This document shows positions 3,616-21,401 of a stretch of 21,939 bases of DNA, piece after piece. The DNA is from an uncultured Acidobacteriota bacterium (GTDB lineage: Bacteria > Acidobacteriota > JAQAZP01): the NCBI GenBank assembly GCA_963836075.1, contig CAWIIB010000010.1, positions 1 through 21,939 of the forward strand, read 5' to 3'. The position numbers were made by a program, and so were the translations under genes. Numbering within the stretch: the first letter of the stretch is position 1; every line of letters begins with the position of its first letter. The notes beneath the pieces are model-generated. The model had not been told where the DNA came from. It saw only the letters and a program-made list of their open reading frames with translations, and searched no databases.

Positions 3616-3673
3616 GTTGTCTGCACCGGTGGATGGCAGGGTTTGGGATCGCCGGATTTCCGGCGGCACGAAT

Positions 3674-3703
3674 AGCGTATCGATCCGGTCTGTACCCTGT
3701 CAA
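3674..3703 (-). promoter_or_regulatory. Putative sigma70 promoter for the TMTC/GT-C operon
   Basis: Minus strand TTGACA (3703-3698), 18 bp spacer, TACGCT (3679-3674), about 60 bp upstream of the proposed start. Confidence 0.5.
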
Positions 3704-3735
3704 ACCTTCGAATGGGGTCTCCAGCTCCCTGTTTC

Positions 3736-3764
3736 TTGACACACCGGTCCCTGCCGGGCAAAGT
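3736..3764 (+). promoter_or_regulatory. Putative sigma70 promoter for chrA, back-to-back with the TMTC promoter
   Basis: TTGACA (3736-3741), 17 bp spacer, CAAAGT (3759-3764). The -10 match is weak. Confidence 0.4.
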
Positions 3765-3833
3765 ATCGGAACCAGGATTGCCGCCTGATTGAACGGCGGG
3801 CTTCACCTGCACCTGAGATATCGGGACAACGGG

Positions 3834-5043
3834 ATGATCGAAACGCTGCCAGCACCGGTTTGTCGGCCGGAAGGCTCTTCCTCGTCTTTCTGCGCCTGGG
3901 GCTCACCTCGTTCGGCGGGCCGGTGGCCCACCTGGGATACTTCCGCGAGGAGTTCGTGGCGCGCCGCAAGCTGCTCGAAGAGGATTCCTACGCCGACCTG
4001 GTGGCCCTGTGCCAGTTTCTTCCCGGCCCGGCCAGCAGCCAGGTGGGAATGGGCATCGGTCTCTCCCAGGCCGGCATCCGCGGGGCGCTGGCCGCCTGGA
4101 CCGGGTTCACCCTGCCCTCGGCCGCGGCCCTGGTGCTGTTCGCGCTGGGGCTCGGGGTGCTGGACGAGTCGGTGGTCCACTCGGGCTGGCTGCACGGGCT
4201 CAAGGTGGCGGCGGTGGCCGTCGTGGCCCTCGCCGTCTGGGGCATGGCGCGGTCCCTTTGCCCCGACCGGATGCGCGGCAGCCTGGCCGTGGTTGCCGCC
4301 GGGATCGTCCTCTTCTTCCCGGGGGTCTGGGGCCAGGTGGCCGCCATCCTGGTCGGCGGGCTGTGCGGCCGGGCTGCTGCTCGATATCGATTCCCCGCAA
4401 TCCCCATCGTCCCTCTCCGCCTCGGTGGGCCGGGGGACGGCGCTGGCCAGCCTGGCACTCTTCTCTTTGCTCCTCTTCGGGCTGCCCGTTGCCGCCCGGG
4501 TCGGTCCCGCACCACGCCCTGGCCCTGGTCGACAGCTTTTACCGCTCCGGGGCGCTGGTTTTCGGCGGCGGCCATGTGGTGCTGCCCCTGCTCCAGGCCA
4601 GGTGGTCCGCCCGGTTGGGTCAGCGGCGACCTCTTCCTCGCCGGCTACGGTGCGGCGCAGGCCGTCCCCGGGCCCCTGTTCACCTTTTCCGCCTATCTCG
4701 GCGCGGTGATGACTCCGGCACCAGGGCGGCTGGCCTGGTGCGGCGATCTGCCTGGTCGCGGTCTTCCTGCCCGTCGTTCCTGCTGGTGGTGGGGGTGCTG
4801 CCGTTCTGGGACGTGCTGCGGGCCAAGACCCGGGTCCGCTCCGCGCTGGGGGGCGTGAATGCCGCGGTGGTGGGGCTGCTGCTGGCGGCGTTCTACCACC
4901 CGGTCTGGACCAGCGGGATCCTTTCCGCCGCCGATTTCGTCCTCGCCCTGTTTGCCCTCGGCCTGCTCACGCTCTGGAAGACGCCGCCCTGGCTGGTGGT
5001 GCTGCTCAGCGGAGTGGGCGGGTGGCTTGTCTCGCTGATCTGA
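3834..5043 (+). CDS. chrA: Long-chain chromate efflux transporter (CHR family), frameshifted
   Basis: 'LFLVFLRLGLTSFGGPVAHLGYFREEFV', 'DLVALCQFLPGPASSQVG', second-half 'FYRSGALVFGGGHVVLPLLQA', 'FLAGYGAAQAVPGPLFTFSAYLG', 'GVNAAVVGLLLAAFYHPVWTS'. Stop TGA 5041-5043. Start is ATG 3834 (needs a frameshift) or TTG 3860. Confidence 0.92.
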
Positions 5044-5153
5044 TCCGTAACAGATCGCTCCGCAATACATCGCTCCGGCTGCCGGCGTTCCGGTTCGCCT
5101 GGAGCGGCTTCTACCCCAGCACTGCAGTGGCGGACTGACTTTGGCTGGGGGCA

Positions 5154-6525
5154 CTACTGCACGTAGCCCAGGGCCTCGAGGCGCTCGAGATTCTCCTGGT
5201 CGGGAGACGCGGCCCGGGGGCCGGCTCCTTCCCGCCAGTGTCCCATCAAGCGGTGCATCTCCTGTGCCCGCCCGGTCTCCCGGGCAGCAAGGTTTGTGCG
5301 CTCGGCCGGGTCCTGCTCCAGGTTGTACAGCTCCACCTGTCTGCGCCAGGGAGTGACCACAAGCTTCCAGGGATACTGGAGCACCATGGTGGACTTGGAC
5401 AGGTTCCGGTACTGGCCGGGATTCCGGTCTTCCACGCTCCACGGTCTGCTGGCTTCGGCAAAGGCGAGCCGTGGAGCCGGGGACATGGAGAGATCGTGCC
5501 CCTCAGACTCTCCGCCTGGGGGGATCCCGGCTGCCGCCAGCAGCGTGGGGAAGAGGTCGAGAGTCTGCACGGTTTCGAATACTGTGCCAGCCTGTTTTCC
5601 TGCACCCGGAAAGCGGATGATCAGCGGCACCCTGATGCTCGGCTGGTAGACGTAATTCCCGTGGTAGAACTTGAGCCGCCGCTCGGTGAGATGCTCGCCG
5701 TGATCGGCAGTGATGGTCACCAGGGCATCCTGCAGTTACGTGCTCTTCAATTCATCCAGCAATGGGCCGAGACTGTGGTCGAGGTAGGCGATTTCGCCGT
5801 CGTAGAGGTCCACCAGGCGTCGCAGATCGGCCCGGGTGGGTTGATCTCGTTCTGCCACAGTCGTTCCAGGTAGGCCATGCTGCCGTCGGCCGGCCCCTGG
5901 TAGGCGCTGCCGTATATCGTGTCGAACGGAGCCGGCGGGTCGTAGGGAAAATGGGGGTCGAAGTAGTGGACCCAGAGGAAGAAGGGGCTGTCGCTATTCT
6001 TGCGCAACCAGTTGAGGGCGGCTGCCGTGGTGGCTTCGGCCCGGCGCTGGTCCTGGTCGGCAGCCGAGATGCCGAATTCCTCGTCGTAGCGGTCGAAGCC
6101 CCGGGCCAGGCCCATGTCTGAGGCAAGGGCCGAGCAGCTGACAAAGGCCGCAGTCCGGTAGCCACGGCTGGCCAGCAATTCGGCCAGCGTGGGGATACCG
6201 GCGGCCAGGGGAAAACTGTTGCGGGGGATGCCCAGACTCTGGGGATGCCGGCCGGTCATCATCGCCGCGTGGGAGGCCAGGGTGGTATTGATGGTGGAGT
6301 AGGCGTTGTCGTAGCGCTGTGCATCAGCGGCAAAGGCGTCGATGTTCGGTGTGCGGGCCAGCGTATAGCCGTAGCAGCCCAGGTGATCCGCTCGCAGCGT
6401 GTCAAGGGTGATCAGGACGATGCTGGTCTGCTCAATCTGCCGGGGAGCTGCACCCCACGGCCAGCAGGATTGCCACCCCGGTCAGCAGCAGGGACAGGTC
6501 GCGGGGATCCTTTGCCACGCTTCAT
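5154..6525 (-). CDS. Sulfatase-like hydrolase/transferase (alkaline phosphatase superfamily), probable lipoprotein
   Basis: Rebuilt N-terminus MKRGKGS(R)[17 protein letters not shown] (lipobox) with GGAG upstream; 'IVLITLDTLRADHLGCYGY', 'TTLASHAAMMTG', 'GYRTAAFVS', 'FFLWVHYFDPHFPY', 'ITADHGE', C-terminal 'ERLEALGYVQ*'. Confidence 0.85.
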
Positions 6526-8251
6526 GGCGCTCCATGATCGGCGCCGGCTTCGGCTGAATCCACCGCTGCCGCCGGCTCCGGACCACCGGGTCCAGCGCCA
6601 CCAGTTCCTCCTCGTCCAGCACCATCCGCACATTTTCGAGATCGCGGACCAGGGAGCGGCCGTCGATCTCCGCCGGGCCGGGTATGCCGGCCAGTTCGGC
6701 CAGTGTTGGCGCCAGGTCCACACTGTTCACCCGGTCGTGCACACGTCCCGCCGGGATGCCGGGGCCGAGCAGAATCAGCGGCACGTGGGTGTCGTAGCGG
6801 TGCGGCGTGCCGTGGGTGGTGGCCGATCCGCGGGTCAGTTGTAACGCTTCGAACTGCACGAGGAAGTCGGGGCTGCGGCCGGCGTGGAAATTGTTGTGGT
6901 AGAAGGGAAATTCGGATCATCGGGGAACGAACCGCCGAGCAGGTCGCCCCGGGTCCAGATACGTTCCACCGCGGGGCATTCGCCAGGATTTCGCCACTGT
7001 CCGTTCCAGTTTTTCGCGGGGGACGCCGGAGGCTCCACGGCCGCCGGATTGAGGAAGGGGCCGGGGAGGAACCAGTCCTGGTCACCGAACCGTTCATCGA
7101 GCTGCCGGCCGGTTTGGTGAAAGCAGAGCACGCCTTCGGCGGTGAGCCTTGAACCGGGTTGGCCAATGCTCCTGGCGATACTCGGGTACCGGCGCCACGC
7201 CATGGTCCCCGGTGAAAGGCGATCAGCAGGTGATGCTTCCCAACCTTATGGGTGACGATGAAGCGAACAGCGGCCGAGATAGGTGTCGAGGCGCATCAGG
7301 GTGTCGAGCACTTCGCGGCTGTTGGGCCGTAGTCGTGACCAACCCAGTCGAGGGCCGAAAAGGAGAGGAAGAGGAGGTCGGTGGATCTGTCCATCCCCAG
7401 CTCTTCGGCTTCGATAAGCCTGGCGCCGAAAGGGCCAAAGCAGTTCGTCATCCCAGGGAGACTCGACGGCGCCTCGTAGAACCAGCGTTCCGGTGCTGGG
7501 GAGGAACGCCGAAGACGTGGGGGAACCCGGTGTGCAGCGGGCCGAAATCGGTGATCTCGATCTCGGCGGCGGCCAGCTGCTCCTCGGGAGACCGGCAGCG
7601 GCTCCCAGGCCTCGCGGAAGTGCCGGAGGAGGGGCCGATGGTCGTTGAACTCGTCGACCCAGGCCGGCCCCCCATCCGGATAGTAGTAGTCGGAACTGAT
7701 GAAGTGCCGGTCTTCTTGTGATACCAGAACGCGCCGTCGGCGTCGTGACCGCCCATGGTGATCGCCGCACGGTCCTTGCCGCTGGCCGCGAACACCCTCG
7801 ATCGCGAATCGGCGGACTTCAGCCAGTCGCCAAGCGCAGGGGAGAGCATGCGGCGCGGCGAGTAGTCGTATTCGTCGTCGTCAACTGCGTAAATTCGATC
7901 GCCGGTGTCCTTTTCATACCAGTCATTGCCAATGATGCCGTGCCGGCCGGGGAAGCAGCCGGTGGCCAGGGTGGCGTGGCCCACCGCGGTGGAGGTGACG
8001 CATGAAAGTGGTGTGCCTCGGAGAACCACGCACCATGGCGGATCAACACGTGGAGGCCGCCTCTGAAGAGGGGCGCGAACGGTCCAGGTATTCCGCGGCG
8101 CACTGGTCACCACCAGCACAAGAATCAGGCGCACGCCCCGGTTCCCGTTCCGCCGCTGTTTCAGTCTCGGCCGGCGGCGGTCTGGGGATCCACAGGAGAT
8201 CAGTGTCAGCAATATGGCCAGGATCAGTGCGGGTAGTGCTCTCTTCTGCAT
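6482..8251 (-). CDS. PafA/PhoK-type alkaline phosphatase (type I phosphodiesterase/nucleotide pyrophosphatase family), lipoprotein; 3' end uncertain (about 6480-6640)
   Basis: GGAGG RBS before ATG 8251; signal [20 protein letters not shown]; 'LILVLVV(DQ)', '[25 protein letters not shown]' (Thr nucleophile), '[13 protein letters not shown]', '[18 protein letters not shown]', 'VDLAPTLA'. The family-like sequence ends near 'IDGRSLV'. Confidence 0.85.
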
Positions 8252-8270
8252 TTGTGTTCCTCCTGTGGAA

Positions 8271-8299
8271 AGCGTAGCCCAGGGGATGGAGATTGGCAA
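8271..8299 (-). promoter_or_regulatory. Putative sigma70 promoter for the phosphatase/sulfatase pair
   Basis: Minus strand TTGCCA (8299-8294), 17 bp spacer, TACGCT (8276-8271), just upstream of the GGAGG RBS. Same -10 hexamer as the TMTC promoter. Confidence 0.55.
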
Positions 8300-8315
8300 G
8301 GGACGGATGCAACAG

Positions 8316-8471
8316 AATGGGGTCAGGCACCTATTAATCGGTTCCGATAAGCTTCCTGTGTTCGGAAATGTGGTTCCGCCACCTAAAAGAGGTGTAAAAA
8401 TAGGTGACTGTCGCTCATCTATTTTGGCCGTTTTGCTATAGCTGAGTTGATGAAAATGGGTGACTGTCACC
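8316..8471. repeat. Cluster of short related palindromes (REP-like)
   Basis: AATGGGGTCAGGCACCTATT (8316-8335), ATCGGTTCCGAT (8337-8348), AAAATAGGTGACTGTC (8397-8412), AAAATGGGTGACTGTCACC (8453-8471) in an AT-rich intergenic stretch. Confidence 0.5.
8396..8425 (-). terminator. Putative intrinsic terminator downstream of uvrA, possibly bidirectional
   Basis: AAAATAGGTGA-CTGTCGC-TCATCTATTTT inverted repeat (11 bp arms, one mismatch) with A/T tails, about 50 bp after the uvrA stop. The stem is AT-rich. Confidence 0.4.
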
Positions 8472-8474
8472 GCA

Positions 8475-14001
<5,527 letters not shown>

Positions 14002-14161
14002 TCCGCTGGTGACTCCCCGGTGACCGCCGGGGTTCCGTATCGCTTTTCGAAGTGAAAGAGCATAGCAGGATTTCCTGGCGGCGCACACCTGAACCGCTGG
14101 GTCACGGCCCGGTGTGGATGGCCCGTCACTCCTCGATCCGGGCGTCCCGGGCGGTCACGAA

Positions 14162-14196
14162 TGCGGTTGACCGCAGCACTTTCCCCATGCTAGACT
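14162..14196 (+). promoter_or_regulatory. Putative sigma70 promoter of the cyanophycin operon with an inverted repeat over the -35
   Basis: TTGACC (14167-14172), 18 bp spacer, TAGACT (14191-14196) with extended -10 TGn; perfect inverted repeat TGCGGT-TG-ACCGCA at 14162-14175. Confidence 0.6.
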
Positions 14197-14269
14197 TCGT
14201 CCCCTAATTCATACATAAGTAGTGGCTTACGCACTGTTGCAGGGCAGGCGGCCAACATTCGGTGAATCA

Positions 14270-15085
14270 GTGAAGCAAGATCGGAAAAGACAAGGGGGAG
14301 GCGGGGGTATCTCGTCCTCGTCGGCGGCGCCGAGGACCGGACCGGAAGGAAAGAGATCCTCAGGCGGACCATGGAGCTCAATGGTGCGGAGACGGTGTCA
14401 GTCATCCCCAGTGCCAGCCGCCACCCGGTGGAACTGGTCCAGCAGTATCGCCGGGCCTTTCGTGCCCTGGGGGTCGCGCAAGGTCCACGCCCTCGATATC
14501 CGCAGCCGTGTCGAGGCCGACCGCAATCGACACGCTGTGCGGATCAGCGAATCGGACCTCATCTTCTTCACCGGCGGCGACCAGGTGCGCCTGGTGCGCC
14601 TGCTGGGAAACAGCCGGGTGATCGAGGAGACGCGGCAGAGATTGCGCCAGGGCGCCACGGTGGCCGGGAGCAGCGCCGGGGCCGCCGCGGCCAGCGATCC
14701 GATGCTCTACGACGGCCAATTGAAGGGCCTGCACAAGGGACGGGTGCGGCATCACCGGGGGTTCGGTTTTATCCGGGGGATCACCATCGACACCCACTTT
14801 GTCCAGCGCAATCGCATCAGCCGGCTGGCGCAGTTCCTGGTCAGCAGCCGCAACGACCGCGGCATCGGCCTCAGCGAGGACACCGCCCTGATCATCGGCC
14901 CGGGGGGTATCGGTGAAGTGGTGGGCCGCGGTACGGTGATCGTTCTCAATTCCCAGGACCTGCGCTTCAATAATTTCAAGGAAACCGAACTGGATACGCC
15001 CATCTCAATGGCAGGACTCCAGCTCGGCTTTCTCTCGGCCGGCATTCGATTCAACACCAGACGATGGTCCGTTGTGAAATCGTGA
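14270..15085 (+). CDS. cphB: Cyanophycinase (peptidase S51), no signal peptide, frameshifted near the 5' end
   Basis: 'GYLVLVGGAEDR', 'VIPSAS', 'FFTGGDQVRL', nucleophile 'AGSSAGAAA', 'IDTHFVQRNRISRL', 'GIGLSEDTA'. Stop TGA 15083-15085. Start (GTG ~14270) is approximate. Confidence 0.9.
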   Translation: MKQDRKRQGGGGGISSSSAAPRTGPEGKRSSGGPWSSMVRRRCQSSPVPAATRWNWSSSIAGPFVPWGSRKVHALDIRSRVEADRNRHAVRISESDLIFFTGGDQVRLVRLLGNSRVIEETRQRLRQGATVAGSSAGAAAASDPMLYDGQLKGLHKGRVRHHRGFGFIRGITIDTHFVQRNRISRLAQFLVSSRNDRGIGLSEDTALIIGPGGIGEVVGRGTVIVLNSQDLRFNNFKETELDTPISMAGLQLGFLSAGIRFNTRRWSVVKS

Positions 15086-15107
15086 GGAACGGAAAAGGAG
15101 ATTTCTG

Positions 15108-16999
15108 ATGCAGGATTTCACGGTGCACTCATTCCAGAATTTTATCGGCCCCAATGCCTTCCTCGACCGGCAGGCGCTGGTGTTCAATCTCCTGCTCGAC
15201 CCGGAAGGGCCCGAGGTGGACTTTTACCGTGAAGCGGTGCTGGAGAAGTTTCCCGTCCTGGAAGCACAGTATCCCGATCGCGTGGCCGAACTGTATGCCC
15301 GGGTCCTGGTCCAGGTGATGAAGATGGACATCGATCTCTTCATCAACAACTACGCGGTGCACGGTGACGGCGGGGACGTCATGGTGGCGGTGGAATACCT
15401 GGACAACCTGATCGCCCGGAACTGCGCCGAGTTCGTCGCCGACTGGTTCCGGTCACTGAACGACAAGAGCTCGTTCGATTTCGATGCGGGTTTCCAGGAG
15501 CTGCAGGAAGAGTTCGACGCCACCGTCTTTGGCGGGCCGACGATCTATTCCCTGATCGAGGCCGGATTGAAACGGGGCATCCCGGTGCTCTACCTCTACG
15601 AGGAAAACGTCTTCATGTGGGGGTATGGTAAACGGCAGGTCCGCGGCCGGTCCACCACCTTTCACACCGACTGGATCAAGGACACCGAGTTCACCACCTT
15701 CAAGGACATGGTCAAGGACTTCCTGCTGATGTGCGGGTTCCCCACGCCCAGCGGCCGCAACACCTTCACCGCCGATGACGCGGTGGCCGAGGCCCACGTG
15801 CAGGGCTACCCGGTGGTGGTCAAACCGCTGGCCGGGCACAAGGGCCAGGGGGTGACCACCGAGATCAAGTCCGACGGCGAGGTCCGCGCCGCTTTCGGCA
15901 AGATCGTCGAGTCGTGCCGCGAGGAGGGTGTCTCCTTCGACGGGGCCATCGTGGAAAAGCAGATCTACGGCACCGACCACCGGCTGCTCACGGTCAACGG
16001 CAAGTTCGTCGCGGCCCTGGAGCGGGTGCCGGCCTACGTCGACGGGGACGGCACGAAATCGATCGAGTGAACTGATCGCCGCGGAGAACGATACCGTGGT
16101 CCGACTGGACAACGCCCGCTCGCCGCTGTGCAAGATCAAGATCGACGACGACCTGAGGGAATATCTCCACCTGCAGGATCTGTCGCTCGATTCGGTGCCC
16201 GGGAAGGGCGAGCGGGTTTTCCTGCGGCGGGTGGCCAATATTTCTGCCGGCGGCGTGTCGATCAACGTCACCGACAAGATGCATCCGAAAAATGTGAAGA
16301 TGGTGGAGGACATCGCCAAGTATCTCCAGGTGGGAATCCTGGGGATCGACGTGCTGGCCGAAGACATCGCCAAGCCGTGGGACGAGGGGAGTTTCGGCAT
16401 CATCGAGATCAACGCCGGCCCCGGCGTCTTCATGCACCTGGCCCCGGCCATCGGCGAGTCCATCGACGTCCCCGGCAAGGTGATGGAGGCCCACTTCCCG
16501 GCGCCGGGCCACGGCCGGGTGCCGATCATCGCCGGAAACTGCATTGTCAACCGAACTGGCCGCCGGGATACACAAGATCTCGAAGGCTTGCGGCCGGGCA
16601 TCGAGTTCGGCAGCCTCACCGCCGAAGGCATCCACTTCAACGGCGAATATTTCCACAAGAACAAGCATCACGATGACAACGTCAAGCTGCTGCTGCGCAA
16701 TCCGAAGCTCGAGCGCGGCCCTGTTCAGCCACACCGCGGACCAGATCGACGACTACGGGATGGTGCACCAGGGCGCCGACCTGGTGATCCTCGACGATCC
16801 CCAGGGATCGGAAGCGATCCTGCCCCGTGACCGGCTGCCTGGCGGCTGGCTGATCGAGACCGGGGATGGCCGGGCGGTGATGACCCGGGACGGGGTTGAA
16901 GTGGCCAGCCTCTCCATCGAGGAGGCCGGCGGCAAGGATGCGGCCCTGCTGGACCTGGTGGGCCGGGTGGCCGCGGAGATGCTGGAGAAATACGACTGA
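15108..16999 (+). CDS. cphA2: CphA2-like cyanophycin synthetase (beta-Asp-Arg dipeptide polymerase), about 630 aa: N domain, intact ATP-grasp, vestigial M domain
   Basis: AAGGAG RBS. Motifs I recall as CphA2-diagnostic: 'VFGGPTIYSL', 'GIPVLYLYEE...WGYGKRQVRG.STTF', 'FTTFKD', 'KPLAGHKGQGVT', 'RVANISAGGVS', 'EINAGPG.FMHL.PAIGESIDVP', 'NVKLLLRNPKL', 'GADLVILDDP'. No GTNGKT P-loop after 'RVPII'. Frameshifts at ~16068, ~16545-16580, ~16720. Confidence 0.82.
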
Positions 17000-17033
17000 C
17001 CCGCGGTGATTCCCGCGAGCGGAGGGGCGACGG

Positions 17034-18194
17034 ATGATTCTGTTCAAGGAATGCGATCTTTACGCCCCGGAGCACCTGGGCGTCAAGGACGTGCTGGTGG
17101 CCGGGGGCCGGGTGGTGGCCATGGCCGACAGCATCGGCGAACCGGCCGGGGTGGAGGTGGAGGTGATCTCCGCCCGCGGGCTGAAAATGGTTCCCGGGTT
17201 CGTTGACGGCCATGTCCATATCGCCGGCGCCGGCGGCGAGGGCGGGCCGGCCACCCGGACGCCGGAGATGCCGCTGTCCTACCTGCTGGAGGCCGGGGTC
17301 ACCACGGTGATCGGCTGCCTGGGCACCGACGGGCTGACCCGCTCGGTGGAGAGCGTGCTGATGAAGACCAAGGCCCTGCGGGCCGAAGGGGTCTCCGCCT
17401 GGATGCTCACCGGGGCCTACCAGGTGCCCACGCCCACCATTCTCGGCGACGTGGGCAAGGACATCGCCATGATCGAAGAGGTGATCGGCGCCGGGGAAAT
17501 CGCCATCTCCGACCACCGCAGCTCGGGGCCCACGGTGGACGAACTGATCAAACTGGTGGCCCACGCCCGGGTGGGCGGCATGCTGGGCGGCAAGGGCGGC
17601 ATCGTCAACTTCCACATGGGCGACGCCAAAAATCCCTTCCAGATCCTCCACGATGTGGTGGCGCGCAGCGAACTGAAATACACCCAGTTCCTGCCCACCC
17701 ACTGCAACCGCAACGACTACATCTTCGAGGACACCAAGACCTACGGCAAGACAGGCTATGTGGACATCACCGCCAGTTCCTGGCCCTTCTTTCCCGAGTA
17801 CGAGACCAAGCCCTCCAAGGCCATCGTCCAGCTGCTGGCCGCCGGCGTTCCGCTGGAGCACATCACCATGACCTCGGACGGCTGCGGCTCACTGCCCGAT
17901 TTCGACGAGCAGGGCAACCTGGTCAAGCTGGAGATGGGCAAACCGAAGTCGGTGCTCGACGAACTGCGGGACACGGTGCTCGAGGAAAAGCTGGAGCTGG
18001 ACAAGGCGGTCCAGGTGGTGAGCAGCAACCCGGCGAGGATCTTCAAGCTGCCGGGCAAGGGCGTGGTTGCCCCCGGCGCCGATGCCGACCTGGTGCTGCT
18101 GGACGGGGAGTTCCGTGTCCACCACATGGTGGCCCGTGGCCAGCTGATGGTGCGCGAGGCCGTTCCGTTGAAAAAGGGCAGCTACGAAGTCTGA
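17034..18194 (+). CDS. iadA: Isoaspartyl dipeptidase (beta-aspartyl peptidase, amidohydrolase family), 386 aa, intact ORF
   Basis: 'PGFVDGHVHIAGAGGEGGPATRTPE', 'GVTTVIGCLGTDG', 'GAYQVP', 'GEIAISDHRSS', 'FHMGD', 'PTHCNRN', 'TSDGCGSLP', 'GADADLV'. GGAGG RBS. Confidence 0.95.
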   Translation: MILFKECDLYAPEHLGVKDVLVAGGRVVAMADSIGEPAGVEVEVISARGLKMVPGFVDGHVHIAGAGGEGGPATRTPEMPLSYLLEAGVTTVIGCLGTDGLTRSVESVLMKTKALRAEGVSAWMLTGAYQVPTPTILGDVGKDIAMIEEVIGAGEIAISDHRSSGPTVDELIKLVAHARVGGMLGGKGGIVNFHMGDAKNPFQILHDVVARSELKYTQFLPTHCNRNDYIFEDTKTYGKTGYVDITASSWPFFPEYETKPSKAIVQLLAAGVPLEHITMTSDGCGSLPDFDEQGNLVKLEMGKPKSVLDELRDTVLEEKLELDKAVQVVSSNPARIFKLPGKGVVAPGADADLVLLDGEFRVHHMVARGQLMVREAVPLKKGSYEV

Positions 18195-18210
18195 TCCCAA
18201 AGGAGCACAG

Positions 18211-20408
18211 GTGAAAGAGGACCAGCCCCAGTGCCGCCTCGAAGAGGGCCCGCTCAAGGCCCTCGGCATCAAGGTGCTCCAGGGGCCCAACTACTTCAGC
18301 GCCGGGCCGGTGATCGCCCTGCGTCTGGACCTGGGCGCGTACGACGAAGTCTTCACCAACGACATCCCCGGGTTTGGCGAGCGGCTCCGCACACTGCTCC
18401 CTTCGCTGCAGAGCCACCACTGCTCGGTGGGGCAGCCGGGCGGGTTTCTGTTGCGGGTCTCCGAGGGAACGCTGCTGGGCCATGTCACCGAGCACGTGGC
18501 CATCGAGCTGCAGACCCTGGCCGGGATGGACGCGGGGTACGGCAAGACACGCAGCACCGCCACCCAGGGGGTCTACAACGTCATTTTCCGCTTTCTCGAC
18601 GAGGAGGTGGGGCTCTACACCGCCCGTGCGGCGCTCAACCTGGTCAATGCCCTGCTCGAGGAGTGTCCGTTCGAGGTCGGGCCGGTGGTCGGTGACCTGG
18701 TGCGCATCCGCGAGGACCGGATGTTCGGCCCCAGCACCGGGGCCGTGGTGGAGCGAGGCCGAGGAACGGAATATCCCATGGTACCGGTTGGACCGCTACA
18801 ATCTGGTTCAGCTGGGGACCGGCAAGTACCAGAAACGGATCCGGGCCACCGTCACGTCGGACACCAGCCTGCTGGCCGTGGAAACCGCTGACGACAAATA
18901 CCTGACCAACAGCATGCTCGCCGACGCCGGCGTCCCGGTTCCGCCCACGGTGCGGGCATCGCACGCCGCCCCCGTGGAAGCCTTTCGCCGGGAACAGGAT
19001 CTGCCGTTGGTGGTCAAGCCGTGCACCGGACACCTGGGGCGGGGCATCACCCTCGGCCCCGCCACGGCCGAAGCGGTTGAAGAGGCCGTGGCCCGGGCCC
19101 TGCAGTTCGACGACTCGGTGATCGCCCAACCGCTGGTGGCGGGGGAGAGCTTCAGGCTGCTGGTGATCGACGGCCGGTTCGTGGCCGCGGCCCGGCTGGT
19201 CCCCCCGGTGGTCACCGGAGACGGACGGCAGACGGTGCAGCAGCTCGTGGCCGGCCTGAACAACGATCCGGACCGCGGGGTGGGCGACAAATCAAAGCTG
19301 AGCCTGGTGGAACTTGACGAGGAGACCGGGCGGATCCTGGAACTGAACGGACTCACCGCGACGTCGGTGTTGCCTGCCGGTCAGATCGCTGGCCCTCAAG
19401 GTTTCGGGCAACCTGCGTCTGGGCGGGGCCAGCCACGATGTCACCGACGGAGGTCCACCCGATGAACCGCCTGCTGGTGGAACGGGCGGCCCGGGCCCTG
19501 GGGCTGGACGCCGCCGGCGTGGACGTGGTGGCCCCTCTCTGGCCGAGTCGATGCTCGACACCGGTGGCGTGGTCATCGAGGTGGGGGCGGCCCCCGACTT
19601 CCGTCTGCACCTCAACCCGGTTTCGGGTTCGCCGCAGGATGTGGTCGCCCCCTTCCTCTCCATGCTCTTTCCGGAAGGGCGCCACAACCGGGTGCCGGTG
19701 GTGGCGGTTACCGGCACCGACGGCAAGACCACCGCCACCGACATTCTGCACCACTGTCTTTCCCGTACCGGCTACCGGGTGGGCCGCGCCACCTCCCGGG
19801 GGCTGATGGTGGGGGAGGAGGTGCTGATCAGGGGTGAGATGACCGGGTTCGAGAGCGCGGCCATGACCCTGCGCGACCCCACCATCGACTGCGCCCTGCT
19901 CGAGGTCCCGCTGGAGACGATCCTCGACCGCGGCCTGGGCTACCGTTTCGCCGATATCGCCGTGGTGCTCAACATCCGTGACGAAGGGCTGCTCTACGAC
20001 GAAGCGGCAATCATGGAGGACATCGCCTACGCCCATGCGGTGGTGGCCGAACAGGTCTACGAGGACGGCTATACCGTGCTCAACGCCGACGACCAGTTGA
20101 TCCTCGAGATGCGGGAACGGCTGCACAGCACGGTGGTGCTTTTTTCGCGCGATCCCGAGAACCCGGCGCTGGTGGAGCTGGCGGCCGCCGGCGGGCGGGG
20201 GGTCACGGTTGAGGAGGGAAAACTGGTGATGATCGACCGTGGCGAGCGTGTGGAACTGGCCGCGCTGGATGCCATCCCCCTGCTGGCCGGTGAGGGCGGG
20301 GCCGTATACCTGGACACCGTGCTGGCCGCGGCGGCGGCGCTCTACTGCTTCGGCGCCTCCGTCGACCGGATCACCGAAACCCTGCAGGGGTTCAATGAAG
20401 GAAAGTAG
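18211..20408 (+). CDS. cphA: CphA1-derived protein, about 730 aa: intact N-domain metallopeptidase motif, degenerate ATP-grasp and Mur-ligase core, no C-terminal lid
   Basis: AAGGAG RBS and GTG start; 'GPNYFS', 'HHCSVGQPGGFLLRVSEGTLLGHVTEHVAIELQTLAGM', 'GPSTGAVV', 'VQLGTGKYQKRIRAT', 'VAVTGTDGKTT', 'VLNADD'. Stops at 'LQGFNEGK*' where canonical CphA1 continues into PGR and the lid domain. Frameshifts ~18750, ~19390, ~19450, ~19535. Confidence 0.88.
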
Positions 20409-20431
20409 GGACAGTTACTACCTTTTTCCGT

Positions 20432-20674
20432 TGTCATCGCGAGGAGTCGGCGCAGCCGACGACGCGGCGATCTCCTCGGATGTTCTTTCGATTCATTGAG
20501 ACTGCCACGTCGCCGGCTCCGCGGGCTCCTCGCAGTGACAGTGAGGACAATGCTGTTCCTTTGCCTGACCTCCCCGGCCCCCGCGGGTCGGTGGCTCGCA
20601 ATGACAGTGAGAGGGCAGTTGTTCCTTTGCCTGACTTCCCGTGGCCCCCGAGGGTCGGTGGCTCGCAATGACAG
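20432..20674. repeat. REP-like palindromic element followed by 66-67 bp tandem units, between convergent genes
   Basis: TGTCATCGCGAGGAG (20432-20446) pairs with CTCCTCGCAGTGACA (20526-20540, two mismatches); CTCGCA(G/A)TGACAG recurs at 20529, 20595, 20662; both spacers share TGTTCCTTTGCCTGAC and GGCCCCCG(C/A)GGGTCGGTGG. Confidence 0.85.
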
Positions 20675-20678
20675 GGGG

Positions 20679-21401
20679 CTACACCCGCCCGAACAACTTC
20701 AAGCACCCGCAGTTTGAACACCACCCAGATCGACTCCCAGATGATCGACTTCGAGATCTTCGACTGCCCTGAACGCCGTTCCTGGAAAATGATGGGTACC
20801 TCTCCCAGGCTGAAACCCTTTCTCCAGGCGAGGAAGCTCATCTCGATCAGGAACACGTATCCATTGGAGCGGATCCCTGCCAGGTCGATGGCTTCCAGCA
20901 CCTCGCGTCGATAGCAGCGGTAGCCGCTGGTGATGTCTTTCAGCGGCAGCCCGGTGACCAGGCGTGCGTAGAGATTGGCCCAGGTGCTGAGGATCAGGCG
21001 CCGCAGGGGCCAGTCCAGCACCCGGACCCCGCCGATGTAGCGGGATCCCTGGACCACGTCGAACCGATTGGAAGCCTCAACCAGCTTCGGGATTTCCCGC
21101 GGGTCGTGGGAGAAGTCGGCGTCCATGCCGACGATGGTCCGGTATCCCTGCTCCAGGGCAAAGGTGAACCCGTGCCACATAGGCCGTGCCCAGGCCCCTC
21201 TGGTCCATCCGGTGGATCAGGTGAATCCGGCTGTCTTTCCGCGGTCCGGGATTCCACCAGTTCCCAGGTGCGGTCCGGGGAATCGTCATCCACCACCAGC
21301 AGATCCACCTCGGGTGCGTGGACGAAGATCTCATCGATCATCCGACCGATGTTTTCCCGTTCTTCGTAGGTGGGAATCACCACCAGGGTGCTTTTGGACA
21401 T
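20679..21401 (-). CDS. GT2 polyprenol monophosphomannose synthase (Ppm1/DPM1-like), about 240 aa, frameshifted
   Basis: GGAG RBS; 'TLVVIPTYEERENI', 'LVVDDDSPDRT', 'GLGTAY', 'MDADFSHDP', 'DVVQGSRYIGG', 'DITSGYRCYRREVLE', 'SNGYVF.IEM', 'EVPIIFQERRSGQSKIS'. Likely true stop is TAG at 20679-20681 after a one-base shift. Confidence 0.88.

What the first reader, a model, noticed from the sequence alone, without database searches (positions are those of the whole stretch)
14162..20408. Candidate new cyanophycin system: cphB - cphA2 - iadA - pseudo-cphA1 operon with no intact de novo synthetase
Seen: four co-oriented genes with 16-34 bp gaps behind one promoter-like element. Established: CphB releases beta-Asp-Arg dipeptides, IadA splits them, CphA2 polymerises dipeptides, and CphA1 builds polymer from Asp + Arg and makes its own primers. 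Neither synthetase homologue here has both CphA1 synthetic sites. Inference: the operon is a dipeptide-centred cycle that scavenges or recycles beta-aspartyl dipeptides and either stores them (CphA2) or consumes them (IadA), with the CphA1 relic supplying primers or scaffolding. I do not know this gene set from a described operon, but could not check the literature.
Basis: partly seen in the sequence, partly recalled or inferred. Interest (0 to 1): 0.88.

Follow-up and report, generated by a model that had tools for sequence, protein, structure and literature searches.

The report
Cyanophycin operon with lidless synthetase
A four-gene operon for the nitrogen-storage polymer cyanophycin pairs a dipeptide polymerase so far described only in cyanobacteria with a naturally shortened synthetase that has lost its arginine-adding part, and this pairing turns out to be common in several uncultured bacterial groups.

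Summary
The four genes are real: cphB, a CphA2 homologue, iadA and a CphA1 homologue that ends at the Mcore/Mlid border, with gaps of 22, 34 and 16 bp.

The window is a noisy 21.9-kb side contig. It is colinear with the main chromosome at 81-84% identity. There the same operon is intact (270, 629, 386 and 729 aa). The window's frameshifts are single-base indels found all along the contig, most likely assembly errors.

The short CphA1 is not a pseudogene (dN/dS 0.14-0.27). It belongs to a widespread family of 710-748 aa proteins. All 47 examined keep the N-domain C..HxxEH peptidase motif, and 40 of 47 keep the ATP-grasp residues. None of 47 keeps all three M-site motifs, against 63 of 77 full-length relatives.

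Lid loss happened several times (AU test p 0.00065). In a 401-genome Bacteroidales-order sample, 19 of 20 genomes with a short form also have a CphA2-like gene. This genome has no complete CphA1.

Best reading: a cyanophycin cycle built on the dipeptide, with no arginine-ligating site. What the short enzyme's ATP-grasp site does remains open.

The papers I could search call CphA2 cyanobacterial only, and none describes a natural lidless CphA1. Verdict: new variant of a known kind.

The parts
14167..14196 (+). sigma-70-like promoter candidate, TTGACC-18 nt-TAGACT with TG before the -10
   Evidence: Only match in 13900-20800, where 0.7 is expected. An identical site stands before the chromosomal copy. 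Conserved in 3 of 3 copies aligned. A consensus match only; function not shown.
14197..14268 (+). conserved 5' leader with a predicted hairpin
   Evidence: Nearly invariant in the window, C9 and G007. RNAalifold gives 17 pairs and no compensatory change in 3 sequences. No Rfam family matches; the best hit has E 8.3 on the other strand.
14269..15085 (+). cphB, cyanophycinase (S51 peptidase), broken in the window by +2 at 14282 and +1 at 14477
   Evidence: TIGR02069 scores 146.1 bits against a cut-off of 126.6 on the 14222-15085 frame. The intact 270-aa copy is on C9. Its Pfam S51 domain covers residues 14-208, which leaves no room for a signal peptide. Indels.
15108..16999 (+). CphA2 homologue (N, ATP-grasp G, vestigial M), broken in the window by four single-base indels
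   Evidence: The pieces match TIGR02068 positions 103-328 and 321-483. The intact 629-aa C9 copy scores 476 bits to CphA2 structure 7ta5 and 435 to 8fxh, against 227 or less to CphA1. It has no Mur-ligase or PF18921 Pfam hit. Indels.
17034..18194 (+). iadA, beta-aspartyl (isoaspartyl) dipeptidase, intact in the window
   Evidence: TIGR01975 scores 466.6 bits against a cut-off of 331.25, covering 3-385 of 386 aa. No indels against C9.
18211..20408 (+). lidless CphA1 homologue (N, G, Mcore; no Mlid), broken in the window by four single-base indels
   Evidence: The pieces match TIGR02068 positions 4-177, 165-377 and 434-714 of 862. The intact 729-aa C9 copy aligns to TeCphA1 (7wac) residues 3-718 of 910. 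Mcore is 488-723 and Mlid 724-876 in Miyakawa 2022. Pfam finds PF18921, ATP-grasp and a complete Mur_ligase_M, but no Mur_ligase_C.
18421..18495 (+). N-domain Cx19HxxEH motif (Cys71 to His95) of the lidless CphA1
   Evidence: Read from the translation. The motif and its function come from PMC9262961 passages. It is present in 47 of 47 short and 77 of 77 full-length relatives.
19713..19733 (+). M-domain P-loop GTDGKTT, retained
   Evidence: Translation and alignment. GK[TS] is kept in 34 of 47 short forms and 77 of 77 full-length forms.
19911..19988 (+). decayed M-site columns: Leu at the column of TeCphA1 Arg561 (19911-19913) and Gly at the His column of the Mur-ligase DH motif (19986-19988)
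   Evidence: Alignments. Arg or Lys at the first column occurs in 4 of 47 short and 66 of 77 full-length forms. His at the second occurs in 7 of 47 and 74 of 77.
20407..20680 (.). dispersed repeat inserted between the convergent operon end and the glycosyltransferase gene; not part of the operon
   Evidence: Absent at the C9 site, where 38 bp separate the flanks. One search lists 18 further matches of 76-96% identity to parts of 20407-20677 on C9, C1, C5 and C2. It contains two tandem units about 66 nt apart.

Best explanation
This is one transcription unit for cyanophycin turnover in an Acidobacteriota-like genome. The window holds an error-ridden second copy of it; the intact copy sits on the main chromosome.

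The expected roles are:
- CphB cuts the polymer to beta-Asp-Arg.
- IadA splits that dipeptide to Asp and Arg.
- The CphA2 homologue re-polymerises beta-Asp-Arg with its single ATP-grasp site.
- The fourth protein is a CphA1 that has lost the Mlid module and the catalytic columns of its Mur-ligase-like M domain, so it cannot attach arginine.

The fourth protein still keeps an intact zinc-peptidase site in its N domain. In CphA1 that site cuts polymer into primers. It also keeps an intact ATP-grasp G site.

With no complete CphA1 in the genome, polymer can be built only from preformed beta-Asp-Arg, either recycled or imported. CphA2 would be the polymerase and the lidless enzyme its helper, supplying primers and handling chains.

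Shown here: gene identities, intactness on the chromosome, conservation, selection, motif states and co-occurrence with CphA2.

Inferred: that the M site is dead, that the N site makes primers here, that dipeptides are the only building block, and what the G site does.
For: - Identity.
- Intact chromosomal copy. C9 carries all four genes uninterrupted.
- Noise, not decay, in the window. The cph genes carry 4, 4, 2 and 0 frame-shifting indels, and the neighbouring uvrA-like gene carries 89. There are 0 premature stops among 841 substitutions. dN/dS against C9 is 0.09-0.21. Short-read contigs of relatives from other runs lack the window's extra bases at 16065 (X3, X4), 16550 (X3) and 16713 (X1, X3).
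- The truncation sits at the module border. The protein ends at TeCphA1 residue about 718-723, and Mlid is 724-876 (PMC9427784). That paper reports that a deltaMlid mutant has 'substantially reduced activity', and that Mlid residues R731 and H748 touch ATP.
- M-site decay. None of 47 short forms keeps GK[TS], R/K at the R561 column and the DH histidine together, against 63 of 77 full-length forms. At matched G-domain identity, Mcore identity is lower in short-short pairs (M/G ratio 0.81-0.86) than in full-full pairs (1.00-1.04), in the four bins between 45% and 70% G identity.
- N and G sites kept. The Cx19HxxEH motif is present in 47 of 47, and the E215, K220, K261 and R309 equivalents in 40 of 47. 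Within the genus, dN/dS is 0.14 for N, 0.25 for G and 0.23 for Mcore.
- No other synthetase. No TIGR02068 match in the own genome passes the cut-off, and there is no stand-alone lid.
- The CphA2 homologue keeps the columns of StCphA2 R308, D362, R389, N393 and S395. I mapped these by hand from the alignment; the residues come.
- Conservation of the operon. The lidless form occurs in G007, in an Acidobacteriota MAG, and in Cloacimonadota, Phycisphaerales and Bacteroidales MAGs. The full-length form occurs in two other acidobacterial families, a Thermoanaerobaculia MAG and a Muiribacteriota MAG.
- Link to CphA2. In a 401-genome order sample, 19 of 20 genomes with a short form also have a CphA2-like gene and none shows a full-length CphA1. 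Among genomes with a full-length form the figure is 5 of 10. Of 5 further genomes with short forms, 4 have a CphA2-like gene and none a full-length CphA1.
- Dipeptide scavenging is considered common in bacteria (PMC9974463, passages).
Against: - If the G site only adds Asp, as in CphA1, its product would lack the terminal arginine side chain that the G site needs. PMC9427784 describes that side chain as a major recognition determinant. A lone G site would then cap chains, yet its catalytic residues stay conserved. The helper model does not explain this.
- The short form with CphA2 is twice as frequent as full-length CphA1 in the order sample, 20 genomes against 10. That is a lot for a system that depends on outside dipeptides.
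- No conserved transporter flanks the operon: of 10 flanking ORFs in 3 loci, one is an EamA transporter.
- The P-loop is intact here and in 34 of 47 short forms, and the Glu558 equivalent in 47 of 47. Residual M function is therefore not excluded.
- The whole clade, short and full-length alike, differs from the four solved CphA1s at two Asp-pocket columns: S396 to K/R and R323 to L. G-site specificity cannot be read across from them.
- One genome, G401, has a short form and no CphA2-like match; its completeness is unknown.
- One search scored only two candidates per genome, and related genomes are not independent observations.
Confidence: 0.5

Rival explanations
1. The lidless CphA1 has itself become a beta-Asp-Arg polymerase. 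This would be a second, repeated origin of a CphA2-type enzyme. It may work beside CphA2 or in a mixed oligomer with it, for example as initiator versus elongator.
For: - It explains why the ATP-grasp residues stay conserved after M loss (40 of 47; G-domain dN/dS 0.25).
- The architecture, N-G-truncated M, is the one CphA2 reached.
- The clade has an altered substrate pocket, K/R at the S396 column and L at the R323 column.
- The CphA2 authors expect only 'a subtle, cryptic change' in that loop to set dipeptide versus Asp specificity.
- One genome has a short form and no CphA2-like match.
Against: - The pocket columns are the same in full-length members of the clade. In 5 of 10 sampled genomes that full-length form is the only synthetase found, so it presumably uses Asp. 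No pocket change accompanies lid loss.
- M-inactivated or deltaMlid TeCphA1 showed no CphA2 activity (PMC9427784, passage).
- If the short form could polymerise dipeptides alone, it is unclear why 19 of 20 genomes also keep CphA2.
Confidence: 0.22
2. The lidless CphA1 is still a complete de novo synthetase. The lid is dispensable in this clade, and arginine is added by the remaining Mcore.
For: - The P-loop GTDGKTT, a Ser at the Thr522 column and the Glu558 equivalent are present.
- Mcore is under purifying selection (dN/dS 0.15-0.23).
Against: - The deltaMlid mutant has substantially reduced activity.
- None of 47 short forms keeps all three M motifs. The DH histidine is kept in 7 of 47, against 74 of 77 full-length forms.
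- P-loops are destroyed in 13 of 47 short forms.
- Mcore evolves faster in short forms.
- From my recall of the Mur-ligase literature, not from any call, the C-terminal domain of Mur ligases carries residues for ATP and for the incoming amino acid.
Confidence: 0.08
3. The copy in the window really is a decaying operon: a pseudogenised paralogue or a dying strain, with genuine frameshifts.
For: - Ten indel events break three of the four genes.
- They are not in long homopolymers (contexts).
- C10 diverges from every other sequence found; the nearest is 89.6% identical. No identical read set was available to check it.
Against: - Indels are denser outside the operon: 16 per kb in the uvrA-like gene and 6 per kb in the glycosyltransferase, against 0-2.5 per kb in the cph genes.
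- There are 0 premature stops among 841 substitutions.
- dN/dS is 0.09-0.21.
- C10 is a 21.9-kb side contig of a long-read-style assembly.
- Contigs from other runs lack the extra bases at 3 of the 4 cphA2 indel sites listed.
Confidence: 0.1
4. The pair is a split de novo synthetase. The two ATP-grasp enzymes together do both ligations, one of them forming or attaching the Asp-Arg isopeptide, which makes the M domain redundant.
For: - Lid loss recurred several times.
- It is almost always found with CphA2: 19 of 20 genomes against 5 of 10.
- The pair is commoner than full-length CphA1 in the sampled order.
- No complete CphA1 occurs in any of the 7 genomes with a short form that I checked individually.
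Against: - The CphA2 homologue keeps the columns thought to bind beta-Asp-Arg in cyanobacterial CphA2.
- A gained K/R in the other enzyme's pocket is not what one expects for binding arginine.
- No known ATP-grasp enzyme of this family makes the isopeptide. This statement is from recall.
Confidence: 0.1

Closest known systems
Cyanobacterial cph2 cluster (cphB2-cphA2) and CphA2 enzymes (solved: 7ta5, 8fxh/8fxi)
   Same: The 629-aa protein is a clear CphA2 homologue. It scores 476 and 435 bits over nearly full length. It has the same N-G-vestigial M build, with no M P-loop and no N-domain HxxEH. It keeps the columns of StCphA2 R308, D362, R389, N393 and S395. It also sits next to a cyanophycinase gene.
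   Different: The host is not a cyanobacterium and has no complete CphA1. [quoted passage not shown] The operon also carries iadA and a lidless CphA1. Homologues at 55-90% identity are numerous in MAGs named Bacteroidales, Cloacimonetes and Negativicutes.
Canonical CphA1 (TIGR02068; solved: 7lg5, 7wac, 7lgm, 7lgn)
   Same: The 729-aa protein aligns from N domain to the end of Mcore (522 bits to 7wac). It has the Cx19HxxEH site, the ATP-grasp residues and an M P-loop.
   Different: - The Mlid module is missing, with no PF02875 hit.
- It scores below the NCBIfam cut-off, 774 against 850 bits.
- The DH histidine and the Arg561 column are lost.
- Two Asp-pocket columns differ from all four solved enzymes.
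Engineered TeCphA1 deltaMlid mutant (Miyakawa et al. 2022, PMC9427784)
   Same: The cut is at the same place, after about residue 723.
   Different: That was a laboratory deletion with substantially reduced activity and no CphA2 activity. Here the deletion is natural, old, recurrent and followed by decay of the M site.
Cyanophycin utilisation or scavenging clusters (cyanophycinase, iadA/iaaA and a transporter, no cphA1), as summarised in Sharon and Schmeing 2023 (PMC10206079)
   Same: cphB and iadA are clustered in a genome without a complete cphA1.
   Different: These operons also encode two synthetase homologues. No conserved transporter flanks them. The CphB has no room for a signal peptide.

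Membership tests
CphA1 (cyanophycin synthetase 1), tested on the 729-aa protein | N domain (PF18921) with the Cx19HxxEH metallopeptidase motif; the motif is present in 83% of CphA1 per PMC9262961 | tested here: met
   PF18921 scores 149 bits. The motif is read and found in 47 of 47 short relatives.
CphA1 (cyanophycin synthetase 1), tested on the 729-aa protein | ATP-grasp G domain with the equivalents of TeCphA1 E215, K220, K261 and R309 | tested here: met
   Mapped by hand from the 7wac alignment. Columns counted.
CphA1 (cyanophycin synthetase 1), tested on the 729-aa protein | Asp pocket residues R323 and S396 of TeCphA1 | tested here: not met
   Leu and Arg stand at these columns. All four solved CphA1 have Arg and Ser. 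Full-length members of the same clade share the change.
CphA1 (cyanophycin synthetase 1), tested on the 729-aa protein | Mcore with P-loop and Mg/ATP residues (K499, T500, T522, E558) | tested here: met
   GTDGKTT is present, Ser stands at the T522 column and Glu at the E558 column.
CphA1 (cyanophycin synthetase 1), tested on the 729-aa protein | Other conserved Mcore columns: Arg561 and the His of the Mur-ligase DH motif | tested here: not met
   Val and Gly in C9, Leu and Gly in the window. The full-length set has R/K in 66 of 77 and His in 74 of 77. That this His is catalytic is from my recall of the Mur-ligase literature.
CphA1 (cyanophycin synthetase 1), tested on the 729-aa protein | Mlid module (TeCphA1 724-876; Pfam Mur_ligase_C) | tested here: not met
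   The protein ends at about residue 718-723. There is no PF02875 hit and no stand-alone lid in the genome.
CphA1 (cyanophycin synthetase 1), tested on the 729-aa protein | NCBIfam TIGR02068 curated cut-off (850 bits) | tested here: not met
   774 bits, profile positions 4-715 of 862.
CphA1 (cyanophycin synthetase 1), tested on the 729-aa protein | Makes cyanophycin from Asp, Arg and ATP | not testable with these tools
   Needs an enzyme assay.
CphA2 (cyanophycin synthetase 2), tested on the 629-aa protein | About 630 aa; N, G and truncated M domains; closest to solved CphA2 | tested here: met
   476 bits to 7ta5 (4-605 on 9-604) and 435 bits to 8fxh, against 227 or less to CphA1.
CphA2 (cyanophycin synthetase 2), tested on the 629-aa protein | No M P-loop, no Mlid, no N-domain HxxEH | tested here: met
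   Sequence. Pfam finds only ATP-grasp families. The features are as stated.
CphA2 (cyanophycin synthetase 2), tested on the 629-aa protein | Conserved G-site residues of StCphA2 (R308, D362, R389, N393, S395) | tested here: met
   All five columns are identical in the 8fxh alignment, mapped by hand. D212 is Glu here.
CphA2 (cyanophycin synthetase 2), tested on the 629-aa protein | Occurs in cyanobacteria that also have CphA1 (literature description) | tested here: not met
   The host groups with Acidobacteriota MAGs. No complete CphA1 is in the genome.
CphA2 (cyanophycin synthetase 2), tested on the 629-aa protein | Polymerises beta-Asp-Arg | not testable with these tools
   Needs an enzyme assay.
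CphA2, considered for the 729-aa lidless protein | Sequence nearest to CphA2 and loss of the N-site motif and M P-loop | tested here: not met
   522 bits to CphA1 against 164 to CphA2. It keeps Cx19HxxEH and the P-loop. It nests among full-length CphA1 in the tree.
Cyanophycinase CphB (TIGR02069, peptidase S51) | Score over the curated cut-off | tested here: met
   146.1 bits against 126.6 on the window frame that holds residues 78-274. Pfam S51 scores 81.8 bits on the C9 copy.
Isoaspartyl dipeptidase IadA (TIGR01975) | Score over the curated cut-off, full length | tested here: met
   466.6 bits against 331.25, covering 3-385 of 386 aa.

The most novel reading that the evidence does not exclude
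The lidless CphA1 is a distinct, recurrent class of cyanophycin enzyme, in effect a third synthetase type. Together with a non-cyanobacterial CphA2 it would form the main cyanophycin-making machinery of several uncultured anaerobe-rich lineages: Bacteroidales, Cloacimonadota, Acidobacteriota and Phycisphaerales.

The pair would work by chemistry not yet described. Either both ATP-grasp sites polymerise dipeptides in a mixed complex primed by the N-domain peptidase, or together they replace the Mur-ligase-type arginine ligation.
Probability: 0.2. Interest if true: 0.8.

Novelty: new variant of a known kind. Interest (0 to 1): 0.62.

Why it matters
The current picture in the papers I could read is simple. 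CphA1 makes cyanophycin everywhere, and CphA2 is a cyanobacterial add-on that re-polymerises dipeptides.

These data add three things:
- CphA2 homologues sit in a conserved four-gene operon in at least five non-cyanobacterial phyla.
- The partner CphA1 has repeatedly shed its arginine-adding lid and active-site residues, while keeping its primer-cutting and ATP-grasp sites.
- Genomes with this pair show no complete CphA1.

Two readings follow. These bacteria may run a nitrogen store fed only by beta-Asp-Arg, which would point to a real dipeptide economy in sediments and digesters. Or the pair may have an activity nobody has assayed.

Both readings can be tested directly with two recombinant proteins. 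They also bear on how CphA2 evolved from CphA1, because natural intermediates exist. Annotation is affected too: these proteins are now labelled 'cyanophycin synthetase', 'acetate--CoA ligase family' or 'partial Mur ligase'.

Tried and rejected
- RNA evidence: no RNA holder was listed for the stretch.
- Same-strain reads: no run held more than 0.09 of the sampled words. The lay therefore used contigs of relatives at 88% likeness or more. It shows rows only for cphA2 indel sites; the cphB and cphA1 sites were not among the rows printed.
- Rfam on the leader: nothing usable, best E 8.3 on the opposite strand.
- Covariation in the leader: 0 compensatory pairs with 3 sequences, so it says nothing either way.
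- Conserved flanking genes such as a transporter or an extra ligase: none was shared among 10 flanking ORFs of L052, L056 and L058.
- A stand-alone Mlid in the own genome: only Mur-ligase-like matches turned up, mostly in a cluster on C8 at 198-207 kb, which I take to be cell-wall ligases.
- Tandem repeats at 3500-5500, where AT skew is odd: none found. The region encodes a chromate-transporter-like membrane protein.
- Matching 'longest contig' lengths between the two hit lists, as a proxy for co-location: 10 of 46 short and 16 of 74 full-length forms match a CphA2-like hit. This is a lower bound and does not separate the two classes.
- Literature: one paper on CphA classes had none of my six search terms, and one on sludge metagenomes had nothing on CphA2 or on truncated synthetases. 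The ACS Chem Biol CphA2 paper is not held.
- I ran no structure or complex prediction. The alignments to solved structures already settle the fold. A G-domain heterodimer would pass merely by likeness to solved homodimers.
- I rejected the idea that short forms are contig-end fragments. Lengths fall into two classes with none between 749 and 861 aa, and short ORFs end at stop codons inside long contigs.

Full report
**What is in the window.** The + strand of 14162-20408 carries four co-oriented genes.
- cphB scores 146.1 bits to TIGR02069, cut-off 126.6.
- A synthetase homologue lies in three frame pieces, 15108-16070, 15928-16830 and 16544-16999. The first two match TIGR02068 positions 103-328 and 321-483; the third matched no NCBIfam model.
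- iadA at 17034-18194 scores 466.6 bits to TIGR01975, cut-off 331.25, and is intact.
- A second synthetase homologue lies in three pieces, 18211-18891, 18374-19465 and 19551-20408. They match positions 4-177, 165-377 and 434-714 of 862.

The gaps between genes are 22, 34 and 16 bp. One sigma-70-like site, TTGACC-18-TAGACT, lies at 14167-14196.

**The window is a noisy copy of a chromosomal region.** The window is the whole of contig C10 of a 6.23-Mb assembly. That assembly has two large contigs (2.3 and 3.5 Mb), one of 234 kb and seven small ones. C10 is colinear over its whole length with C9:3167782-3189282, at 81.5%, 84.2% and 78.9% identity in three blocks.

On C9 the four genes are uninterrupted. 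They encode cphB of 270 aa, the CphA2 homologue of 629 aa, iadA of 386 aa and the short CphA1 of 729 aa. A convergent glycosyltransferase gene follows.

Against both C9 and a congeneric genome, the window has ten private small indel events in three of the genes. The indels are not special to the operon. The uvrA-like gene upstream, one 1844-aa ORF on C9, carries 89 frame-shifting indels in the window, or 16 per kb. The glycosyltransferase carries 5, and the cph genes carry 0-4 each.

Over 2018 codons and 841 substitutions there is no premature stop in C9's frame. dN/dS against C9 is 0.09-0.21.

Short-read contigs of relatives from other public runs lack the window's extra bases at 16065 (X3 and X4; X1's covering contig does not show it at that place), at 16550 (X3) and at 16713 (X1 and X3). 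They carry the missing G at 16578 (X3). No run held the strain itself; the largest share of words was 0.09.

The nearest sequence is an Acidobacteriota MAG contig, 89.6% identical, with open frames. I read C10 as a low-coverage contig of a related population binned with the genome, which has 4.6% contamination. I put the odds that its frameshifts are errors at about 0.85.

**Identity of the two synthetase homologues.** The 629-aa protein is a CphA2 homologue.
- It scores 476 bits to 7ta5 and 435 to 8fxh over nearly full length, against 227 or less to CphA1 structures.
- Pfam sees only ATP-grasp families in it.
- It lacks an M P-loop and the N-domain HxxEH.
- It keeps the columns of StCphA2 R308, D362, R389, N393 and S395. 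I mapped these by hand; the residues come.

The 729-aa protein is nearest to CphA1: 522 bits to TeCphA1 (7wac) against 164 to CphA2. It aligns to TeCphA1 residues 3-718 and then stops. Miyakawa et al. (PMC9427784; passages and section 7 read) place Mcore at 488-723 and Mlid at 724-876, so the protein ends at the module border. Pfam finds PF18921, ATP-grasp and a complete Mur_ligase_M, but no Mur_ligase_C.

It keeps several functional sites:
- The Cx19HxxEH motif, which Sharon et al. (PMC9262961, passages) showed to be a primer-generating endo-cyanophycinase site.
- The equivalents of E215, K220, K261 and R309.
- The M P-loop and the Glu558 equivalent.

It has lost two Mcore columns that full-length relatives conserve: the Arg561 column and the histidine of the Mur-ligase DH motif.

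**No other synthetase in the genome.** A TIGR02068 search of the whole assembly, which is 94.7% complete, gives no match over the cut-off. The best is the 729-aa gene at 774 of 850 bits. Matches to the lid region are weak, and most lie in a cluster on C8 that I take to be the cell-wall Mur ligases.

**The lidless form is a family, not an accident.** Among the best 120 database hits to the 729-aa protein, 46 are 710-748 aa and 74 are 862-932 aa, with none between. I added four locus-derived rows, giving 47 short and 77 full-length:

| Feature | Short (of 47) | Full-length (of 77) |
|---|---|---|
| N-domain motif | 47 | 77 |
| Four ATP-grasp residues | 40 | 74 |
| GK[TS] P-loop | 34 | 77 |
| R/K at the Arg561 column | 4 | 66 |
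| DH histidine | 7 | 74 |
| All three M motifs | 0 | 63 |

At matched G-domain identity between 45% and 70%, Mcore identity is lower among short-short pairs than among full-full pairs. The M/G ratio is 0.81-0.86 against 0.97-1.04, while N-domain identity is about equal. Pairs are not independent observations.

Within the genus all three domains are under purifying selection: dN/dS is 0.14 for N, 0.25 for G and 0.23 for Mcore against G007.

On a FastTree of the 124 rows, built without the lid columns, the short/full label needs 11 changes, and at least 7 are forced by well-supported branches. On a 63-row subset (28 short, 35 full; the rest left out for speed), the AU test rejects a single clade of short forms, with delta lnL 722.9 and p 0.00065. 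With full-length canonical CphA1 as outgroup, these changes are losses.

**A clade-wide pocket change.** All of these relatives, short and full-length, differ from the four solved CphA1s at two Asp-pocket columns of TeCphA1. S396 is K or R in 42 of 47 short and 70 of 77 full-length rows. R323 is L in 42 of 47 and 61 of 77. The solved enzymes all have Arg and Ser there. The three full-length rows that keep Ser, and the three that keep Arg, include the two canonical second copies from G035 and G044, which serve as outgroup.

Miyakawa et al. report that R323 binds the beta-carboxylate of the incoming Asp, and that S396W abolishes activity. I cannot tell what this change does. It means G-site specificity in this clade is untested.

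**Conservation of the operon.** The order cphB-cphA2-iadA-cphA1 recurs in several lineages.
- With a lidless cphA1: G007 of the same genus; an Acidobacteriota MAG (contig starts within cphA2); a Cloacimonadota MAG (712 aa; contig starts within cphA2); a Phycisphaerales MAG (open frame 736 aa); and a Bacteroidales MAG (open frame 744 aa).
- With a full-length cphA1: two other acidobacterial families (880 and 885 aa); a Thermoanaerobaculia MAG (length not read, because the open frame runs on past the match); and a Muiribacteriota MAG (open frame 890 aa).

Variants are cphA2-cphA1 (890 aa) in G050, cphB-cphA2-iadA in G322 and cphA2 alone in G255. G035 and G044 also carry a canonical second CphA1 nearby.

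In the phylum sample, 8 of 401 genomes have a true CphA2 homologue. Of the 80 loci returned, ten show 43-58% identity to the query (nine of altered-pocket-clade level and one of 43%), and one further short form (L061) shows 41%. The other 69 are about 38-42% identical, of which 67 have complete full-length open frames and two (L071, L125) run off their contigs. Many of these have cphB beside them and none has cphA2.

**Link between lid loss and CphA2.** In 5 further genomes with a short form, none has a full-length CphA1 and 4 have a CphA2-like gene. A sample of 401 genomes from the order around the Bacteroidales MAG gave the following:
- 10 genomes have a full-length CphA1 over the cut-off; 5 of these also have a CphA2-like gene.
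- 20 genomes have a short form (profile end 670-726, open frame 732-840 aa); 19 of these also have a CphA2-like gene and none shows a full-length one.
- 2 genomes have 5' fragments I did not class.
- 4 genomes have a CphA2-like gene only.

Only two candidates per genome were scored, completeness was not given, and related genomes are not independent. In at least two of the 19 (G404 and G439) the two genes lie within a few kb of each other.

CphA2-like proteins are numerous: 606 at E 1e-80 or better among the 8000 candidates scored. Every organism name among the best 120 is non-cyanobacterial.

**What the literature says.**
- CphA2 is called 'a cyanobacterial enzyme' in PMC10206079 (passages) and in the 2023 hexamer paper (introduction, results and discussion read).
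- Miyakawa et al. made a deltaMlid TeCphA1 with substantially reduced activity and no CphA2 activity. They suggest that Mlid is unfavourable when only the G site works.
- Five full-text searches found no paper on a natural lidless CphA1 or a non-cyanobacterial CphA2.
- The ACS Chem Biol CphA2 paper is not held and supplements were closed, so a mention there cannot be excluded.

**How it most likely works.** The following are shown: the parts list, their intactness, the selection on them, and the absence of an intact arginine-ligating site in this genome.

From these I infer that polymer is built from beta-Asp-Arg by the CphA2 homologue. It is degraded by CphB and IadA. The lidless enzyme serves through its N-domain peptidase, making primers, and through its polymer-binding G and Mcore scaffold.

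The weak point is the G site. If it adds only Asp, it would make chains ending in a bare Asp. The G site recognises such chains poorly. Yet its catalytic residues are conserved.

That observation favours the rival in which the G site of lidless forms uses the dipeptide. It also leaves room for chemistry not yet described. Against that rival, the pocket does not change when the lid is lost, and nearly all genomes with a lidless form keep CphA2 as well. My odds:

| Reading | Odds |
|---|---|
| Dipeptide-only cycle with a helper role | 0.5 |
| Second dipeptide polymerase | 0.22 |
| Split de novo synthetase | 0.1 |
| Lid dispensable | 0.08 |

Separately, I put the odds that the window copy is truly decaying at 0.1.

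**Verdict.** It fails on 'pseudo' and 'relic'. This is a new variant of a known system, conserved across phyla, and it contradicts the stated distribution of CphA2. Two recombinant proteins would settle its mechanism.

Noticed in passing
window 14197-14268; also L001 7806-7879 and L010 3973-4046: The roughly 70-nt leader between the promoter-like site and the cphB start is almost invariant in three copies whose coding DNA is only about 85% alike. It holds a predicted GC-rich hairpin. No Rfam family matches. It may be a regulatory RNA or a protein-binding site for the operon.
   Followed up: partly
window 20407-20680: A dispersed repeat with two tandem units about 66 nt apart is inserted between the convergent operon end and the glycosyltransferase gene. 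It is absent at the same site on C9. One search lists 18 further matches to parts of it on C9, C1, C5 and C2, at 76-96% identity.
   Followed up: partly
window 8300-14150 (- strand); L001 2138-7672: A double-length UvrA-like gene, one 1844-aa ORF on C9, is shredded into about ten overlapping ORFs in the window by 89 frame-shifting indels. This is the clearest sign that the contig is noisy.
   Followed up: yes
proteins P0005-P0124; alignment columns at P0001 residues 329 and 402: A whole clade of CphA1, both full-length and lidless and found mostly in Bacteroidota, Acidobacteriota and allies, has Leu at the TeCphA1 R323 column and Lys or Arg at the S396 column. All four solved CphA1s have Arg and Ser there. 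The substrate pocket of this clade is uncharacterised.
   Followed up: partly
protein P0314: A 922-aa protein combines a CphA2-like sequence (57% identity over the whole query) with a peptidase S51 (cyanophycinase-type) Pfam domain. It appears to be a fusion of polymerase and depolymerase.
   Followed up: no
L047 (G035) 4079-6766 and 6949-9606; L045/L046 (G044): Two acidobacterial genomes carry three synthetase genes close together: a canonical CphA1, an altered-pocket full-length CphA1 and a CphA2 homologue.
   Followed up: partly
search of 401 genomes of the order around G404: Lidless CphA1 was found in 20 genomes and full-length CphA1 in 10, so the shortened form is the commoner one in this sample. 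Public names for these proteins vary: 'cyanophycin synthetase', 'ATP-grasp domain-containing protein', 'Mur ligase family protein, partial' and 'acetate--CoA ligase family protein'.
   Followed up: partly
window 4009-5043: A strong negative AT skew (-0.5) at 72% GC coincides with a chromate-transporter-like membrane protein ORF. No tandem repeat is present. This looks ordinary.
   Followed up: yes
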